Source: a virus
Taxonomy: Duplodnaviria > Heunggongvirae > Uroviricota > Caudoviricetes
Direction: 5' to 3' (one strand)
Virus record (IMG/VR): IMGVR_UViG_2562617113_000015
Location: 1 to 30,093 of that record
DNA: 30,093 nt
Both the position numbers and the translations under genes were made by a program. Of the stretch, positions 2,450 through 25,929 are shown piece after piece; position 1 is the first letter of the stretch, and the number at the start of each line of letters is the position of its first letter. The notes beneath the pieces were generated by a model. The model searched no databases. It was given only the letters and a program-made list of their open reading frames with translations, and was not told the origin of the DNA.

Positions 2450-3277
2450 TTATTTAATCTGGATAAATGGTGTATTGGCACCACTGGTCATGTATTGCGG
2501 CAGTGTACCGTTCCACTTGTTGATGGCTTCCAGCTCCATGACGCCTGGGTTCTGGCGTAGAGCTTCGCCGCGTAAACGAATGGCATCGGCTTCTGCCTGG
2601 GCTTTTGTTCGAATGGCATCAGCCTGTCCGGCAGCTTCCGCACGTAGCATGTTGGCCTCCGCTTCACGTTGCTTGACTTCCTGCTCGCGCTGCAGGGTTT
2701 TCTGGTTTGCCGTGACTTTGGCATTAATGCTGTCGATAACGGTTGGCGGGTACTCCGGCTTACCCACATATGAGAGGCTCATTACCTGAATACCGATAGG
2801 TGTCATCTCTGCCTGAATGTCTTTAAGAGCTTCATCCAGCAGCTCAGACTTGCCGCCGTCGATAAATTTGTCAGTGGTCATTTTGCTGGCCAGTCGGTTG
2901 AGTGCGTCGGCGATCTTCTGGCGCAGGTCAGTGTCGGTAATGTCATCCACGCCTTTGCGGTAGGTCTGAAACACCGTGGTAACTTTGGATGGATCAACTT
3001 TGTAGGCCACGCCAATGTGATAGCCGATGGTTGTACCGTCACTCATCTGGAAACTGAACGGTTCATCGTAGGTCTTCATTTGTTTGAAGGTGGGGAAGAT
3101 ATAAACTTCAGTATTCCAGCCAGTCCAGTAGCGACCAACACCGACCACCTCACCGACGCCTTTGTCGTCGCCCAGTTTATTTACCTTGATGCCAACATTA
3201 CCTGGTTCAACGCGATCGCAACCGACAAGGCCAATAGTCGGCAGAACAATGGCTAAAGCAAAAATAATTTTTTTCAT
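2450..3277 (-). CDS. SPFH/band-7 (prohibitin-like) lipoprotein (275 aa)
   Basis: N-terminal signal peptide ending in lipobox L-V-G-C; central SPFH-like region; C-terminal Ala/Glu/Arg/Gln-rich coiled coil; AAGGA RBS; start overlaps the upstream gene's stop (ATGA). Confidence 0.8.
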   Translation of the reverse strand: MKKIIFALAIVLPTIGLVGCDRVEPGNVGIKVNKLGDDKGVGEVVGVGRYWTGWNTEVYIFPTFKQMKTYDEPFSFQMSDGTTIGYHIGVAYKVDPSKVTTVFQTYRKGVDDITDTDLRQKIADALNRLASKMTTDKFIDGGKSELLDEALKDIQAEMTPIGIQVMSLSYVGKPEYPPTVIDSINAKVTANQKTLQREQEVKQREAEANMLRAEAAGQADAIRTKAQAEADAIRLRGEALRQNPGVMELEAINKWNGTLPQYMTSGANTPFIQIK

Positions 3278-3462
3278 CTTTTATCCTTAGTGAAAGAAAG
3301 ACCCTTGTAAATGGCATAAATGCAGGGCGGGGTCAGAAACGCCAGTGCAAAGCCAGAAATAACTGCTATCGTATCCTTCATGGATATAAGGAACGGAACG
3401 AGTAATCCGTAAATGCATGCGATAATTGCCAGTAAAATTACTATTGTGAAATACAGTCTCAT
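3274..3462 (-). CDS. Small two-helix membrane protein (62 aa), translationally coupled to the SPFH gene
   Basis: Two hydrophobic segments; stop overlaps the SPFH start codon (ATGA at 3274-3277). Confidence 0.6.
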   Translation of the reverse strand: MRLYFTIVILLAIIACIYGLLVPFLISMKDTIAVISGFALAFLTPPCIYAIYKGLSFTKDKR

Positions 3463-3485
3463 TGGTCTGTGGTATCCCGATATTT

Positions 3486-3593
3486 TTAACCGACTGACAG
3501 CGCAATAAAGAGAATAATGATTTCAGTTAGTGTCAGTACTGTGGCAAGGATTAAAATCAGTTTTACTCTGTTTAATTCACGGTTGCTTTTCAT
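3486..3593 (-). CDS. Possible small hydrophobic peptide (35 aa: MKSNRELNRVKLILILATVLTLTEIIILFIALSVG)
   Basis: Read by eye on the minus strand; charged N-terminus followed by a single predicted transmembrane helix; no clear Shine-Dalgarno. Confidence 0.25.
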   Translation of the reverse strand: MKSNRELNRVKLILILATVLTLTEIIILFIALSVG

Positions 3594-3638
3594 ATAAACG
3601 GTTGGTAAAAGATGGAAGAATTATATTCTTCTTAATAT

Positions 3639-4220
3639 TTAATGTGTCACTGGCGCTTCTGGCATACCATGAGTATTCAGGTCGTTCATCATTTCATCCA
3701 GAAGGAGTTCAAGCCCTTCGCGCCCCATAGCAGAAATAATGAAACCATTATCAGGATCTGCGATGAGCATTTTTTGATAGAGAAACAGAACTCGCCCCAT
3801 GCCTTCAGCTTCGCCATATTTTTCAATAAATCCCCATTCGACGTGGTTTTGCAGGGCAATACGAAGTGGTCCGGGGTAGATACTCAGGCAACCATGTTTA
3901 CCCTTGTAAATAACCGCGTGATCTGTAGTTCCGTTATCGTTAGGGATATCAACGGTACCGTTCTTGTCTTTCTCTTCATTTATAAACGTAGTCACATACA
4001 GCCATCGCCACTGAGCAACCTTCATATCGACTGAAAATCGTCCCAGCAACCCTGCATCATCGGCTTCAGCAATACATTGCATGATTCTTAAGCCGTGCCA
4101 GTATGGATTGTCGTATTCACCATCATTAAGTCGCTGTACGGCATCAACAAAATTAATGGTTGTATTGCCAATTTTTATGCCATGTGGCGTAACTTCTGGT
4201 CGGAAATCTGAATGATTCAT
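3639..4220 (-). CDS. Hypothetical protein (193 aa), last gene of a coupled three-gene unit
   Basis: Internal ATG at 4220 preceded by AAGGAG; start overlaps the stop of the upstream 62-aa gene (ATGA at 4217-4220); AT-rich; no recognisable family. Confidence 0.6.
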   Translation of the reverse strand: MNHSDFRPEVTPHGIKIGNTTINFVDAVQRLNDGEYDNPYWHGLRIMQCIAEADDAGLLGRFSVDMKVAQWRWLYVTTFINEEKDKNGTVDIPNDNGTTDHAVIYKGKHGCLSIYPGPLRIALQNHVEWGFIEKYGEAEGMGRVLFLYQKMLIADPDNGFIISAMGREGLELLLDEMMNDLNTHGMPEAPVTH

Positions 4221-4405
4221 AATGTTTGCTCCTTTGCTGGTGGAATAATCGTGTAGCCAGCTCTTTTTGCCATCCACAGAAATGTATCCATGCAGCCAAC
4301 GAATTCATTATCCAACAGATGTTTTGAGTAAATTACTTCACCATTTTCAATGGTTAGCAACACTCTTACTTTTTTATGTGTTATGTTTTGTTGTTTTTCT
4401 TTCAT
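4217..4405 (-). CDS. Hypothetical protein (62 aa)
   Basis: GGGAGA RBS; translationally coupled to the downstream 193-aa gene. Confidence 0.5.
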   Translation of the reverse strand: MKEKQQNITHKKVRVLLTIENGEVIYSKHLLDNEFVGCMDTFLWMAKRAGYTIIPPAKEQTL

Positions 4406-4409
4406 TTAT

Positions 4410-4523
4410 TTATCTCCCATATGCTTTGCGCAAATACAGGTTGGCTATATGAAGATAAGAATCTCCATGTTGTGCAATGAGGCAGGCAGTTTTATACGAT
4501 GCCTTATGTTTCAGGAAAGTCAT
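4410..4523 (-). CDS. Possible small basic protein (37 aa: MTFLKHKASYKTACLIAQHGDSYLHIANLYLRKAYGR)
   Basis: Read by eye; AGGAG RBS 8 nt upstream of the ATG at 4523; stop lies 4 nt before the start of the next gene. Confidence 0.25.
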   Translation of the reverse strand: MTFLKHKASYKTACLIAQHGDSYLHIANLYLRKAYGR

Positions 4524-4601
4524 AACATAATCTCCTGCGAATAAAGGTTGCAACAATCCCCGGCGATAAAACCGTAATAAACATTCAGTGAATATTTATT
4601 G

Positions 4602-4802
4602 TTATTGCGCTAATTCTTTTTTGACTGCAGCTTTCGAATATTCACATGCAAAAGACAGGATTTCATCACCTAATGTTTTTGCATTCTGATTATTTGACAT
4701 CTGTAAAACTTGCGCAGCGCACAACAGACTATGAATGTTTATTGCAAATGAATCCGATGCCAGACAAATACCTTCGAAATTGTCATGGATATTACTATTC
4801 AC
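4602..4802 (-). CDS. Small protein (66 aa) paralogous to the N-terminal domain of the adjacent HTH protein
   Basis: GTG start with AAGGAG RBS; segment DSFAINIHSLLCAAQVL...ILSFACEY aligns with DSFALNIANLLSAVRTF...VMEFIHEY of the upstream gene. Confidence 0.55.
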   Translation of the reverse strand: MNSNIHDNFEGICLASDSFAINIHSLLCAAQVLQMSNNQNAKTLGDEILSFACEYSKAAVKKELAQ

Positions 4803-4807
4803 TGCTG

Positions 4808-5260
4808 TTACTCCTTTGCAGCATTGCTACCAGTCAATAACCACATCGGATCGCAGCCAAGAATATTTGCCAGTGGGATAAGCATACTGATGGTTGGTTC
4901 ATACTCTCCGCTCTCCCACTGGATGATGATTTCTTCATCAAGAGCGAGCAGCCTGGCGAGTTCGGCTGTTGTTAAGCCGCAGGCTTCGCGTTGGGTGCGA
5001 AGGTTAACCAGCCAGCTTTCAGGGAAGGATTGTTTTTGTTGTGCAGGAGAAGCAGCAGATAGAGCATATTCATGGATAAATTCCATTACCTCAATGCCCA
5101 GTTCCTTTGAGCGAGCACAATCCAGAAGATGGAATGTGCGTACAGCACTTAGCAAATTTGCAATATTTAATGCAAAGGAATCAAGTTCTAAGCCCTTAAG
5201 CGTAACACAGCCGCAGTTGATAAAATTAGTTGTTTCTGGAGTTGCTTTTAGTGTCTTCAT
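4808..5260 (-). CDS. Two-domain protein (150 aa): unknown N-terminal domain plus C-terminal Cro/C1-type (XRE) HTH
   Basis: C-terminal GLTTAELARLLALDEEIIIQWESGEYEPTISMLIPLANILGCDPMWLL is a typical XRE HTH; first gene downstream of the PL-like promoter. Confidence 0.75.
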   Translation of the reverse strand: MKTLKATPETTNFINCGCVTLKGLELDSFALNIANLLSAVRTFHLLDCARSKELGIEVMEFIHEYALSAASPAQQKQSFPESWLVNLRTQREACGLTTAELARLLALDEEIIIQWESGEYEPTISMLIPLANILGCDPMWLLTGSNAAKE

Positions 5261-5290: not shown

Positions 5291-5342
5291 ATCAAGTTAT
5301 AATTGATGGTGCGATATTATGCTTTGGGAAATAGGCTGTCAA
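5291..5342 (-). promoter_or_regulatory. PL-like leftward promoter with OL operator
   Basis: Minus strand reads TTGACA-N17-TAATAT (-35 at 5337-5342, -10 at 5314-5319); perfect 17-bp palindrome ATCAAGTTATAATTGAT at 5291-5307 at the predicted start site; the ATCAAG half-site recurs in OR. Confidence 0.5.
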
Positions 5343-5370: not shown

Positions 5371-5397
5371 AGAAAAAAAACGGGCAAAGCCCGTTAA
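5371..5397 (-). terminator. Rho-independent terminator downstream of the cI-like gene
   Basis: 7-bp stem (AACGGGC / GCCCGTT) with a 3-nt loop, followed on the minus strand by a U8 run; sits 10-30 nt after the cI stop. Confidence 0.65.
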
Positions 5398-5406
5398 AAT
5401 CAAAGA

Positions 5407-6096
5407 CTAACCAAATCTGTTTATGTTGAATGGTACTGATGAGATCACTTTAGACTGGATATAAAGCAGAGCTAACCCCTCTTTTTCGATGCTCCATGGT
5501 TGATAATTGGGGTTATCAGATAACACCATGATTTTGCTTCCAATTTTTTGAAGCCTTTTCACGTAGCATTCTCCATCAAAACAAAATGCATAAATACCAT
5601 CGCCATCAAAATAAGTTACTGTCTTATCAAGAAAAAGAAGGTCGCCAGGTGAGATTGTGGGAGCCATACTGTCTCCTCTGGCGTTACCTATTTCTATATT
5701 TTTGAATGCCCGATTTCCAACAAGACGTCGGGCATATTCAGGATCAAGTTCTATTGAGCGCACTACATCTATCAAGTCACCACGGACATGAGTTCCATCA
5801 CCGCAACTAAACTCAACATCAAGGACATTAAACACGACGCTATCTGTTCTTGTCTGGTGTTTCTCTTGCGAGGAAAAGGTTGGTGAGGAGTCTTCACCTA
5901 AGAACCAGGATTGTGGATAACCGCTAATCTCTGATAAATGCGCGAGCTTATCACTCCGTGGAAATGTTTTTCCTGTTGTCCAGTACTGCACTGATTGCGC
6001 ACTCACACCTAACTTGCGGGCCAGTTGAGCCTGAGTCCATCCTTTTGCTTTCAGCATCGCGGCTATTCGATTTTCCGTGTTTTTGACGTTCTTCAT
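5407..6096 (-). CDS. cI: CI-like prophage repressor (229 aa): N-terminal HTH plus C-terminal S24 (LexA-like) autopeptidase domain
   Basis: N-terminal HTH (GWTQAQLARKLGVSAQSVQYW); C-terminal G-D-S-M serine motif and a downstream lysine, as in LexA/CI; divergent from the cro-like gene. Confidence 0.9.
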   Translation of the reverse strand: MKNVKNTENRIAAMLKAKGWTQAQLARKLGVSAQSVQYWTTGKTFPRSDKLAHLSEISGYPQSWFLGEDSSPTFSSQEKHQTRTDSVVFNVLDVEFSCGDGTHVRGDLIDVVRSIELDPEYARRLVGNRAFKNIEIGNARGDSMAPTISPGDLLFLDKTVTYFDGDGIYAFCFDGECYVKRLQKIGSKIMVLSDNPNYQPWSIEKEGLALLYIQSKVISSVPFNINRFG

Positions 6097-6229
6097 GACC
6101 AGGTCCTGTGGGTTTCTTTACAAGGATAAATCTTTACTTGATTTTAGTGTATTCGATCCTTTTGCAACTTGCATGTTAATTTAATCTTGATGTATTCTTG
6201 TGTTATCAAGTTAATATTGGTGTTTTGCT
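6097..6229. promoter_or_regulatory. OR-like immunity region with divergent PRM/PR promoters and operator half-sites
   Basis: Intergenic region between divergent cI and cro; ATCAAG/CTTGAT half-sites at 6138-6143, 6186-6191 and 6205-6210; candidate PR is TTGATG-N18-TTAATA (6187-6216); exact -35/-10 assignments are uncertain. Confidence 0.55.
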
Positions 6230-25480: not shown

Positions 25481-25538
25481 GATAATTTTTTAATCGTTTT
25501 GAAATTGAATGCTTTACTCAAAGTCAGGAGGATTAATC

Positions 25539-25880
25539 ATGAGAAAATCAGTGGTGACATTAGCTTGTTTGTTTTTTATTAGTGCATGTAAGCCATCAGA
25601 TAATTATGTTATTTCTTTAGGGGAAAACTTAGTTAAAGATAAGCTTATTGATCCTGATAGTGCAAAATTTAATTCTTTTTTTCATAAGTCAGGTGATTTA
25701 TATGGTTATGTTTGTGGTGATGTTAATTCAAAAAACACGTTTGGTGGATATACAGGGAAAAAGCCATATTTTGTTTATTTGGAAGTTGTGGATGGAAAAG
25801 TTAAGAGTCATGGGACTGTAACAATTGTTAATGATCATGATCCAAGCAGTATGGAAAAATATAAGTTGTTTTGCCAATAA
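25539..25880 (+). CDS. Lipoprotein moron (about 113 aa)
   Basis: AGGAGG RBS; signal peptide with lipobox F-I-S-A-C; AT-rich relative to the flanking tail genes; followed by its own terminator. Confidence 0.65.
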   Translation: MRKSVVTLACLFFISACKPSDNYVISLGENLVKDKLIDPDSAKFNSFFHKSGDLYGYVCGDVNSKNTFGGYTGKKPYFVYLEVVDGKVKSHGTVTIVNDHDPSSMEKYKLFCQ

Positions 25881-25890
25881 TTATCATCTT

Positions 25891-25916
25891 AAAAAACCGC
25901 AGAAGCGGTTTTTTTA
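25891..25916 (+). terminator. Rho-independent terminator after the lipoprotein moron
   Basis: Stem ACCGC / GCGGT with loop AGAA, followed by T7. Confidence 0.65.
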
Positions 25917-25929
25917 TGGGGTAAAGTAA

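What the first reader, a model, noticed from the sequence alone, without database searches (positions are those of the whole stretch)
3639..4523. Tightly coupled three-gene cassette of unknown function in the AT-rich early-left operon
Reading frames of 37, 62 and 193 codons are packed with 4-nt spacing or ATGA overlap, each with its own Shine-Dalgarno, in the most AT-rich part of the prophage. None matches a family I recognise. Compact coupled operons of small proteins plus one larger effector-sized protein in this position are where exclusion, defence and toxin-antitoxin systems are usually found.
Basis: inference. Interest (0 to 1): 0.6.

Follow-up and report, generated by a model that had tools for sequence, protein, structure and literature searches.

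The report
Conserved early-operon phage genes, unknown function
Three tightly packed genes in a dormant E. coli virus are real and conserved and sit in the operon predicted to switch on when the virus wakes, but nothing marks them as a defence or toxin-antitoxin system, and their function is still unknown.

Summary
On the minus strand, ORFs of 37 aa (4410-4523), 62 aa (4217-4405) and 193 aa (3639-4220) are packed with a 4-nt gap and an ATGA overlap. Each has a Shine-Dalgarno sequence, and all three are under purifying selection (dN/dS 0.07 for the 37-aa ORF).

The window is a phiP27-like E. coli prophage. The genes are phiP27 L07 and L06 plus an ORF that RefSeq leaves unannotated.

They lie downstream of a terminator that ends the repressor gene and of a consensus-like promoter overlapped by a repressor-operator palindrome. 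This is the repressed early-left operon, not a lysogen-expressed unit.

No Pfam, NCBIfam, PADLOC or PDB match exists. The 193-aa protein has a confident AlphaFold model with no structural neighbour.

Comparative genomics shows a conserved Enterobacterales gene set. The 37-aa and 62-aa genes always travel with the 193-aa protein or a shorter 119-aa paralogue. The 193-aa family also occurs alone in P4-like satellites beside the primase gene. It ends in a conserved tail resembling a Lon degron.

Best reading: transient early accessory proteins, with p62 and p193 probably forming a complex that acts on host or phage proteins. A toxin-antitoxin-like reading remains a minority possibility. Defence is not supported. 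Interest is modest.

The parts
4410..4523 (-). p37: 37-aa basic protein (pI 9.8), MTFLKHKASYKTACLIAQHGDSYLHIANLYLRKAYGR, with conserved C-terminal LYLRKAYG(R/K)
   Evidence: ORF and SD read from the sequence. dN/dS is 0.07 against the Stx1a_499 lineage. There are 25 distinct variants, including Klebsiella, Aeromonas-phage and Salmonella-type copies. It is annotated only in LC567825. No Pfam or PHROG hit.
4217..4405 (-). p62: 62-aa protein, phrog_340 (unknown function). Predicted disordered N-terminus, long beta-hairpin, one helix, disordered C-terminus
   Evidence: phrog_340 E 3e-24, with a weak hit to the C-terminal part of an 'anti-repressor' PHROG (E 0.004; 6e-5 for a relative). At least 570 homologous clusters, all short hypothetical proteins. 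AF2 secondary structure has pLDDT 73-83 over the p62 part. It always abuts a p119/p193-superfamily gene.
3639..4220 (-). p193: 193-aa acidic soluble protein (pI 5.0), phrog_1515. Alpha/beta fold with no known structural neighbour. Conserved flexible tail ...G-M-P-E-A-P-V-T-H-COOH
4217..4220 (-). ATGA start/stop overlap of p62 and p193 (translational coupling)
   Evidence: Read from the sequence.
4555..4579 (-). 25-nt conserved intergenic box TATTACGGTTTTATCGCCGGGGATT upstream of p37. It is the left recombination joint of the p37-p62-p193 block and may form a small RNA hairpin
   Evidence: 23 of 25 nt are identical between lineages whose p37 coding sequence has saturated dS. The chimeric locus L009 switches lineage here. 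Function not tested.
3607..3631 (-). Weak AT-rich hairpin plus U-tract directly after the p193 stop. It is the right boundary of the block
   Evidence: dG -4.9 kcal/mol, z -1.4. It is below the terminator scan threshold. Relatives have a longer T-run. Loci lacking the next module diverge exactly at the stop codon.
5314..5342 (-). pL-like promoter TTGACA-17 nt-TAATAT, predicted to drive the whole leftward operon
   Evidence: 10 of 12 consensus match; sequence read. Function is inferred, not shown.
5291..5307 (-). Operator-like palindrome ATCAATTATAACTTGAT at the predicted transcript start. The same ATCAAGT/ACTTGAT half-sites recur in the cI-cro intergenic region at about 6137-6221
   Evidence: Repeat families D4 and I2; sequences read. 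Repressor binding is inferred.
5379..5395 (-). Intrinsic terminator ending the repressor gene, upstream of pL
   Evidence: 7-bp stem with 5 GC pairs, followed by T8.
4808..5260 (-). HTH150: first gene of the operon, an XRE-type HTH regulator (phrog_4836, 'CII-like')
   Evidence: PF01381 E 9e-10; phrog_4836 E 8e-77.
4602..4802 (-). p66: 66-aa paralogue of the N-terminal half of HTH150. It always precedes p37 in E. coli prophages
   Evidence: phrog_4587 E 4e-31, with reciprocal cross-hits to phrog_4836. Synteny.

Best explanation
The three ORFs are genuine, conserved accessory genes of the repressor-controlled early-left (pL-type) operon of a phiP27-like temperate phage. They are predicted to be silent in the lysogen. 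After induction or infection they would be transcribed from pL on one polycistronic mRNA (HTH150, p66, p37, p62, p193, and onward to xis and int) and translated with coupling.

p62 is a small protein with a beta-hairpin and one helix. p193 is an acidic soluble protein with an unassigned alpha/beta fold. They most likely work as a heteromeric pair, because p62 is always fused in register to a member of the p119/p193 superfamily. The conserved unstructured C-terminal tail of p193 ends in His. It probably makes p193 a short-lived Lon substrate, so its activity would be confined to the early phase.

By analogy with what early-left genes usually do, I take the pair, and separately the basic 37-aa protein, to be protein-binding modulators of a host or phage target. 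That means host takeover, counter-defence or early regulation, not a lysogen-protecting defence or addiction module.

Shown: the gene reality, operon position, synteny, paralogy and lack of known homologues. Inferred: the repression in lysogens, the complex, the Lon lability and the target class.
For: - Coding and coupling.
- Operon context: a terminator after the repressor gene, a 10/12 promoter, and an operator palindrome shared with the oR region. No consensus promoter or strong terminator lies between 3600 and 4600.
- The palindrome upstream of p37 is not conserved among relatives.
- Conserved synteny: p37+p62+p193 in 149 loci, p37+p62+p119 in 22, and all four in 8. None has p62 without p119 or p193.
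- In a p62-anchored sample, 25 of 25 loci have p37-p119-p62.
- The same gene set occurs in Citrobacter, Klebsiella, Salmonella, Yersinia, Pantoea and Rahnella.
- The p193 family sits in the early operons of temperate phages and of P4-like satellites, beside the primase gene.
- p119 is a paralogue of p193 residues 69-192 (hhalign E 4e-5, HMM cross-hits).
- Tail G-phi-P-x-x-P-phi-x-H with a near-invariant terminal His, pLDDT below 50. It matches the class of C-terminal Lon degrons with an invariant terminal His preceded by hydrophobic residues (PMC11986505).
- No defence or TA HMM hits.
- Only 23 of 72,556 plasmid records carry a homologue, and all 23 are non-mobilizable.
Against: - No experiment or expression data were available. 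Promoter, operator and repression are consensus-level inferences.
- A weak hairpin and U-tract after p193 and a conserved box before p37 could hide regulation that I did not resolve.
- The p62-p193 complex is inferred from gene order only. A multimer prediction was not possible.
- The window's tail (V-T-H) fits the Lon degron consensus (x-L/I-L/I/V-H) only loosely.
- The class 'host or phage protein modulator' rests on analogy with lambda and P22 pL genes (from memory), not on any homology.
- Relatives carry a ParE_like gene among these genes, which leaves room for a TA-like logic.
Confidence: 0.5

Rival explanations
1. Reverse-order type II toxin-antitoxin-like pair. The small upstream p62 (and, in relatives, the 72-aa ParE_like protein) is the toxic partner. 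p193 or p119 is the neutraliser, and p193 is kept unstable by its Lon-degron-like tail.
For: - The ATGA overlap, and conserved adjacency in both gene orders.
- Co-occurrence asymmetry: p62 and ParE_like are never seen without a p119/p193-superfamily neighbour, while p193 occurs alone.
- A PF24732 ParE_like gene (E 7e-18) sits inside the same gene set in relatives.
- The terminal-His tail.
Against: - No toxin or antitoxin family matches p62 or p193.
- There is no own promoter or conserved operator, and the pair sits inside a repressed operon.
- It is confined to one operon position in phages and satellites and is absent from mobilizable plasmids.
- p193 stands alone beside the primase gene in satellites.
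- The window has no ParE_like gene.
Confidence: 0.15
2. One reading: a lysogen-protecting exclusion, abortive-infection or defence cassette, with the 193-aa protein as effector and the small proteins as sensors or regulators.
For: - A compact coupled operon next to the immunity region, AT-rich, with proteins of unknown function.
- Prophage regions next to the repressor gene do host such systems (established knowledge, for example lambda rexAB; from memory).
Against: - No PADLOC hit.
- The cassette is separated from the repressor gene by a terminator and placed behind an operator-covered pL-type promoter, unlike rexAB, which is co-transcribed with cI.
- It is conserved and syntenic rather than variable among relatives.
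- The family is also found in satellites' early operons.
- p193 is soluble, with no TM segment, nuclease, NTPase or other effector signature.
Confidence: 0.07
3. Replication- or recombination-associated accessory factor. p193 assists element DNA replication or protects replicating DNA, using its tail to dock on a host or element replication protein.
For: - In three P4-like satellite lineages the p193-family gene lies directly, or within three small genes, upstream of the primase/helicase gene (DUF927, D5_N, Toprim).
- This phage's early-left operon has no recognisable recombination or anti-RecBCD genes.
- The protein is acidic with a conserved terminal peptide.
Against: - In phages the gene is in the left operon, far from the replication genes of the right operon.
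- There is no structural similarity to SSAPs, Gam, SSB or helicase loaders.
- The adjacency in satellites may only reflect a single early operon.
Confidence: 0.12

Closest known systems
Enterobacteria phage phiP27 genes L06 and L07 (NP_543058, NP_543059), with PHROG families phrog_1515 and phrog_340
   Same: These are the same genes. p193 is 90% and p62 is 98% identical at the protein level. The position between the immunity region and xis-int is the same, and so are the flanking SPFH lipoprotein and integrase.
   Different: Nothing functional is recorded for them. The phiP27 record uses the 212-aa GTG start for L06 and does not annotate the 37-aa ORF.
Small accessory genes of the lambda and P22 pL operons (cIII, kil, gam, ral, abc2; established knowledge, from memory)
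   Same: The place is the same: a repressor-controlled early-left operon between the immunity region and xis-int. The style is the same: small, tightly packed, translationally coupled genes acting early. Several of these proteins are unstable or act by binding host proteins.
Reverse-order type II toxin-antitoxin pairs (higBA, hicAB, mqsRA type) and the prophage three-component paaR2-paaA2-parE2 system (from memory)
   Same: A small upstream protein is overlapped by a larger partner with a protease-degron-like tail. The location is a prophage. A ParE-fold gene occurs in the same gene set in relatives.
   Different: No toxin or antitoxin domain is present, and no autoregulated promoter. The window has no ParE_like gene. 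The pair is restricted to one operon position and absent from mobilizable plasmids.
C-terminal Lon degrons ending in His (SulA-type; Yersinia pestis Lon substrates, PMC11986505)
   Same: The family has a flexible C-terminal tail with a near-invariant terminal His, usually preceded by V/I/T and then M/A/I/L/T.
   Different: The window's own tail is V-T-H, not two aliphatic residues. Degradation was not tested.

Membership tests
PHROG phrog_1515 (p193) and phrog_340 (p62), both of unknown function | Full-length match to the family profile | tested here: met
   phrog_1515: E 2e-91, residues 1-193 on profile positions 12-203 of 203. phrog_340: E 3e-24.
Type II toxin-antitoxin system | One partner belongs to a recognised toxin family | tested here: not met
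   No Pfam, NCBIfam or PADLOC toxin model hits p37, p62 or p193. The ParE_like PF24732 gene exists only in relatives.
Type II toxin-antitoxin system | The other partner is a recognised antitoxin or DNA-binding autoregulator | tested here: not met
Type II toxin-antitoxin system | Autonomous, autoregulated transcription unit (own promoter and operator) | tested here: not met
   No consensus promoter lies in the 78-nt gap upstream of p37. The palindrome there is not conserved among relatives. The nearest promoter is pL at 5342-5314. This is a consensus scan only.
Type II toxin-antitoxin system | Toxicity of one partner, relieved by the other | not testable with these tools
   Needs expression experiments.
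Known anti-phage defence systems (PADLOC-DB v2) | A match of any component to a defence-system model | tested here: not met
   Zero hits for p37, p62 and p193 at E<=1.
Lysogen-expressed exclusion genes of the rexAB type | Co-transcription with the repressor, or an own constitutive promoter, in the lysogen | tested here: not met
   A terminator at 5395-5379 ends the repressor transcript. The cassette follows an operator-overlapped promoter. This is an inference from sequence; no expression data.
Lambda-type early-left host-takeover proteins (cIII, Kil, Gam, Ral) | Sequence or structural homology to one of these families | tested here: not met
   No Pfam hit and no fold neighbour.
Lambda-type early-left host-takeover proteins (cIII, Kil, Gam, Ral) | Position in the repressor-controlled leftward early operon between the immunity region and xis-int | tested here: met
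   the same holds in relatives.
C-terminal His-type Lon degron (PMC11986505) | Terminal His preceded by two hydrophobic residues on an accessible C-terminus | tested here: inconclusive
   The terminal His is near-invariant across 56 diverse members, and the tail has pLDDT below 50. The preceding residues are V/I/T and then T/M/A/I/L. The window has V-T-H. Degradation cannot be tested here.

The most novel reading that the evidence does not exclude
The p119/p193 superfamily is a previously unrecognised family of short-lived, Lon-tagged neutraliser (antitoxin-like) proteins with a new fold. Temperate phages and P4-like satellites of Enterobacterales would make them early. They would be paired with small partner proteins (p62, ParE_like), or stand alone as decoys that disarm host toxin-based abortive-infection defences.
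Probability: 0.15. Interest if true: 0.65.

Novelty: new member of a known kind. Interest (0 to 1): 0.3.

Why it matters
As it stands the result is mostly clarifying. It corrects the strand, shows that a 37-aa ORF missed by RefSeq is a real gene under strong constraint, places the cassette in the repressed early-left operon, and removes the defence/TA label as the default reading.

There is some value beyond that. The work defines a conserved early gene set (p37, p62, p119/p193, and optionally ParE_like) shared by phiP27/HK97-like temperate phages of many Enterobacterales, including Stx-converting phages, and in part by P4-like satellites. The 193-aa protein has a confidently predicted fold with no structural neighbour and a tail that suggests controlled proteolysis. 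If it neutralises a host or phage factor, it would be a new early host-takeover or counter-defence protein present in about 6% of complete E. coli genomes.

Tried and rejected
- Sequence and profile searches of p193 against Pfam, NCBIfam, PADLOC and PDB gave nothing. These used a single sequence and a 56-member profile.
- The Klebsiella-phage annotation '2-polyprenylphenol hydrolase' was rejected as unsupported.
- An accession and PHROG-id literature search found no papers. Searches on phiP27 and on early-left toxic small proteins found nothing about these genes. A search for PF24732 found no papers.
- I looked for p62-like domains fused to antirepressor-type proteins. An HMM search over about 20,000 ORFs of all loci, and a tblastn search against phages, found none.
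- The 25-nt palindrome upstream of p37 was tested as an operator or terminator. It is not conserved and its folding is not exceptional.
- An AF2 run on the natural p37-p62 fusion P0216 gave only a medium-confidence p62 part and an uninformative p37 part.
- A genome-contig scan with a Klebsiella p62 found nothing.
- Small genes upstream of p193 in satellites have no Pfam family.

Full report
**What is there.** The finding lies on the minus strand. Reading 4620 to 3560 in reverse complement gives three ORFs.
- p37 runs 4523..4410, with AGGAG eight nt before its ATG.
- p62 runs 4405..4217, with GGGAG before its ATG, four nt after the p37 stop.
- p193 runs 4220..3639, with AAGGAG before its ATG, which overlaps the p62 stop as ATGA.

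The mechanical ORF list shows a 212-aa GTG form of p193, but all homologues start at the 193-aa ATG. GC is 0.39-0.40 here against about 0.5 in the late genes. Two other stretches are more AT-rich.

**Are they genes?** I compared the window lineage with the roughly 66%-identical lineage found in Stx1a-converting phage Stx1_499.
- p37 has 16 synonymous and 10 non-synonymous differences, giving dN/dS 0.07 with dS saturated.
- p193 has dN/dS 0.13.
- p62 has pN/pS 0.45.
- The other frames of the p37 stretch carry stops.

p37 has 25 distinct variants, including copies in Klebsiella phages, Aeromonas phage AsXd-1 and another enterobacterial prophage. All keep ...AYKTA.L.A..G......LYLRKAYG(R/K). RefSeq annotation omits p37, and here also p66. 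One GenBank phage record annotates p37.

**Where it comes from.** The window is an E. coli prophage integrated next to mlrA. It is 99% identical to strain E21845/O/A over the 1.5-kb query, and 319 of 5,426 complete genomes match at least part of that query. It is a relative of Stx2e phage phiP27. p193 corresponds to L06 (90% identity) and p62 to L07 (98% identity).

Gene order on the minus strand is:
1. S24-type repressor (5407-6096)
2. HTH150 regulator (4808-5260)
3. p66 (4602-4802)
4. p37, p62, p193
5. p35
6. a 62-aa membrane protein
7. SPFH lipoprotein
8. DUF5406
9. DUF4222
10. xis
11. int

**Transcription context.** The repressor gene ends in a good intrinsic terminator at 5395-5379. A 10/12 sigma-70 consensus promoter, TTGACA-17 nt-TAATAT, follows at 5342-5314. 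The palindrome ATCAATTATAACTTGAT (5307-5291) sits at the predicted transcript start. Its half-sites recur three times in the repressor-cro intergenic region.

This is the classical pL/oL arrangement, so the cassette should be repressed in the lysogen and expressed after induction or infection. That is an inference from sequence. The scan found no consensus promoter and no terminator between 3600 and 4600.

The 25-nt palindrome just upstream of p37 is not conserved in relatives and does not fold exceptionally. A conserved 25-nt box (4579-4555) and a weak hairpin with U-tract after p193 (3631-3607) coincide with recombination joints.

**What the proteins are.**
- None of the three matches Pfam, NCBIfam or PADLOC.
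- p193 is phrog_1515 and p62 is phrog_340, both of unknown function.
- p193 is acidic (pI 5.0) and soluble. With a 24-sequence alignment it gives a confident AF2 model: pLDDT 89.7 and pTM 0.84, with three small beta-sheets and six helices.
- An exhaustive HMM search finds only 128 representative clusters among 1.84 billion proteins.
- Across 56 diverse members the nearly invariant positions are D37, R72, W73, R120, E128, Y148, G166 and the last residue, H193.
- The last nine residues form a low-confidence but conserved tail, G-phi-P-x-x-P-(V/I/T)-x-H.
- p62 is predicted to be a disordered N-terminus, a long beta-hairpin, one helix and a disordered C-terminus. Its only annotated resemblance is weak, to the C-terminal part of an 'anti-repressor' PHROG.
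- p37 is basic (pI 9.8) and its composition suggests helices. No confident model was obtained.

**Comparative genomics.**
- In 80 IMG/VR loci found with p193, the order p66-p37-p62-p193 always holds. The repressor identity varies from 21 to 100%, and the downstream p35/membrane/SPFH module is present or absent.
- Anchoring on the downstream DUF5406 gene shows 63 loci with all three genes and 18 with p37 and a p62 homologue but no p193. In those 18, a 119-aa gene (phrog_1737) sits directly upstream of p62 and overlaps it.
- hhalign aligns the whole 119-aa protein to p193 residues 69-192 (E 4e-5, probability 70%). The p193 HMM cross-hits p119 ORFs. p119 is therefore a short paralogue of p193.
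- HMM mapping over about 190 loci gives p37+p62+p193 in 149, p37+p62+p119 in 22, all four in 8, and p193 alone in 6. No locus has p62 without a p119/p193-type gene.
- A p62-anchored sample gives 25 of 25 loci with p37-p119-p62, 20 with a following 72-aa gene, and 18 with p193.
- That 72-aa gene matches Pfam PF24732, ParE_like toxin domain (E 7e-18). It occurs in the gene set of Klebsiella, Citrobacter, Yersinia, Pantoea, Rahnella and some E. coli elements, usually together with a 130-146-aa gene. The window lacks both.
- More distant p193 relatives lie in the early-left operons of Morganella and other prophages. They also lie, without p37 or p62, in P4-like integrative satellites (int, AlpA, AntA/Ash, DUF4222..., p193, primase), at or near the primase gene.
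- Homologues are on only 23 of 72,556 plasmid records, all non-mobilizable and mostly of phage size.

**How it most likely works.** Three steps are shown: these are real genes, they are part of a conserved syntenic early gene set, and they have no detectable relationship to any characterised family. The rest is inferred.
- pL-driven, repressor-controlled expression is inferred from sequence.
- A p62-p193 (or p119-p62) complex is inferred because the two families are always joined by overlapping or abutting start and stop codons, in either order.
- Instability of p193 is inferred from its tail. A recent study defines a widely distributed class of C-terminal Lon degrons with an invariant terminal His preceded by two hydrophobic residues. 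In that study, changing the His to Asp abolished degradation (PMC11986505). The family tail fits this pattern, and the window's V-T-H fits it loosely.

Characterised early-left genes of lambda and P22 mostly act by binding host or phage proteins: cIII, Kil, Gam, Ral and Abc2 (established knowledge, from memory). The p193 family is also used by satellites. I therefore take the pair to be a transient early protein-binding modulator for host takeover, counter-defence or early regulation. Confidence in this package is about 0.5, and far less for any specific target.

**Rivals.**
- *TA-like reading (0.15).* It is favoured by the coupling, by the rule that the small partner is never alone, by the ParE_like gene in relatives, by the degron-like tail and by the weak antitoxin-domain hit. 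Against it: no toxin or antitoxin homology, no own promoter, a single conserved operon position, absence from mobilizable plasmids, and solo p193 in satellites.
- *Lysogen-protecting defence or exclusion (0.07).* It has no specific support and is contradicted by the transcription context and by conservation rather than variability.
- *Replication-associated role (0.12).* It is suggested only by adjacency to the primase gene in satellites.

**Comparison with known things and novelty.** The genes are already in databases as hypothetical proteins (phiP27 L06 and L07; PHROGs 1515 and 340), so the cassette as such is not new. It behaves like the familiar class of small early-left accessory genes without belonging to any characterised family. 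I therefore file it as a new, uncharacterised member of a known kind. Three observations may be new:
- the reality of p37;
- the p119/p193 superfamily and its strict pairing with p62;
- the degron-like tail and the presence of the family in satellites.

**Verdict.** Early-left position and unknown function hold, and the genes move as a block within E. coli. The defence or TA effector idea is not supported. Interest is modest (0.3). The most novel reading not excluded is a new Lon-labile neutraliser family used by phages and satellites, with probability about 0.15.

Noticed in passing
window 7741-7929 and 12979-13174 (+ strand): There are two copies of an isrK sRNA plus C4 antisense RNA pair, and one c4-a1b1 target element, all above Rfam gathering scores. 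These are P1/P7 immI-like antisense control modules, lying among Rha, Ash and ORF6N antirepressor-type genes.
   Followed up: no
window 2450-3593 (- strand): p35 (3486-3593), a 62-aa membrane protein (3274-3462, phrog_1130) and an SPFH/Band-7 lipoprotein (2450-3277) form a separately mobile module. It is missing from about 15 of 80 related loci, with the joint exactly at the p193 stop codon. This variable membrane module is a better moron or exclusion candidate than the finding itself.
   Followed up: partly
window 4602-4802 and 4808-5260 (- strand): The 66-aa protein is a paralogue of the N-terminal, non-HTH half of the adjacent 150-aa XRE-type regulator, with reciprocal PHROG cross-hits. This could be a regulator and truncated anti-regulator pair at the head of the early-left operon. 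p66 starts with GTG and is not annotated in the closest RefSeq genome.
   Followed up: partly
L119 3282-3889; L004 3365-4020; L184 3685-4340; L194 1244-1477: Relatives carry a 72-aa gene matching Pfam PF24732, ParE_like toxin domain (E 7e-18). It usually overlaps a 130-146-aa gene of unknown function, and the pair is inserted between p62 or p119 and p193. It may be a TA-like pair inside the early-left operon. The window does not have it.
   Followed up: partly
window 4555-4579 (- strand): The 25-nt box TATTACGGTTTTATCGCCGGGGATT upstream of p37 is more conserved between lineages than the flanking coding sequence. A small CGG(Y)...(G)CCG hairpin is kept even in Klebsiella phages. It also marks a recombination joint, seen in L009. 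An RNA element or a mosaic boundary sequence are both possible.
   Followed up: partly
L004 4001-4579 and other Klebsiella phage records (H45-H50): p193 homologues are annotated as '2-polyprenylphenol hydrolase / flavodoxin oxidoreductase' in several Klebsiella phage GenBank records. No profile or structure search supports this name.
   Followed up: yes
protein P0216 (E. coli, 3 contigs): A 110-aa protein fuses a p37-type N-terminus, via a frameshift near its end, to an N-extended p62. It is either a natural fusion or a sequencing or mutational artefact. An AF2 run on it was uninformative for the p37 part.
   Followed up: partly
window 25501-26000: GC drops sharply to 0.33 in the late region, just upstream of the 1066-aa tape-measure-size ORF. 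This is the most AT-rich stretch of the window.
   Followed up: no
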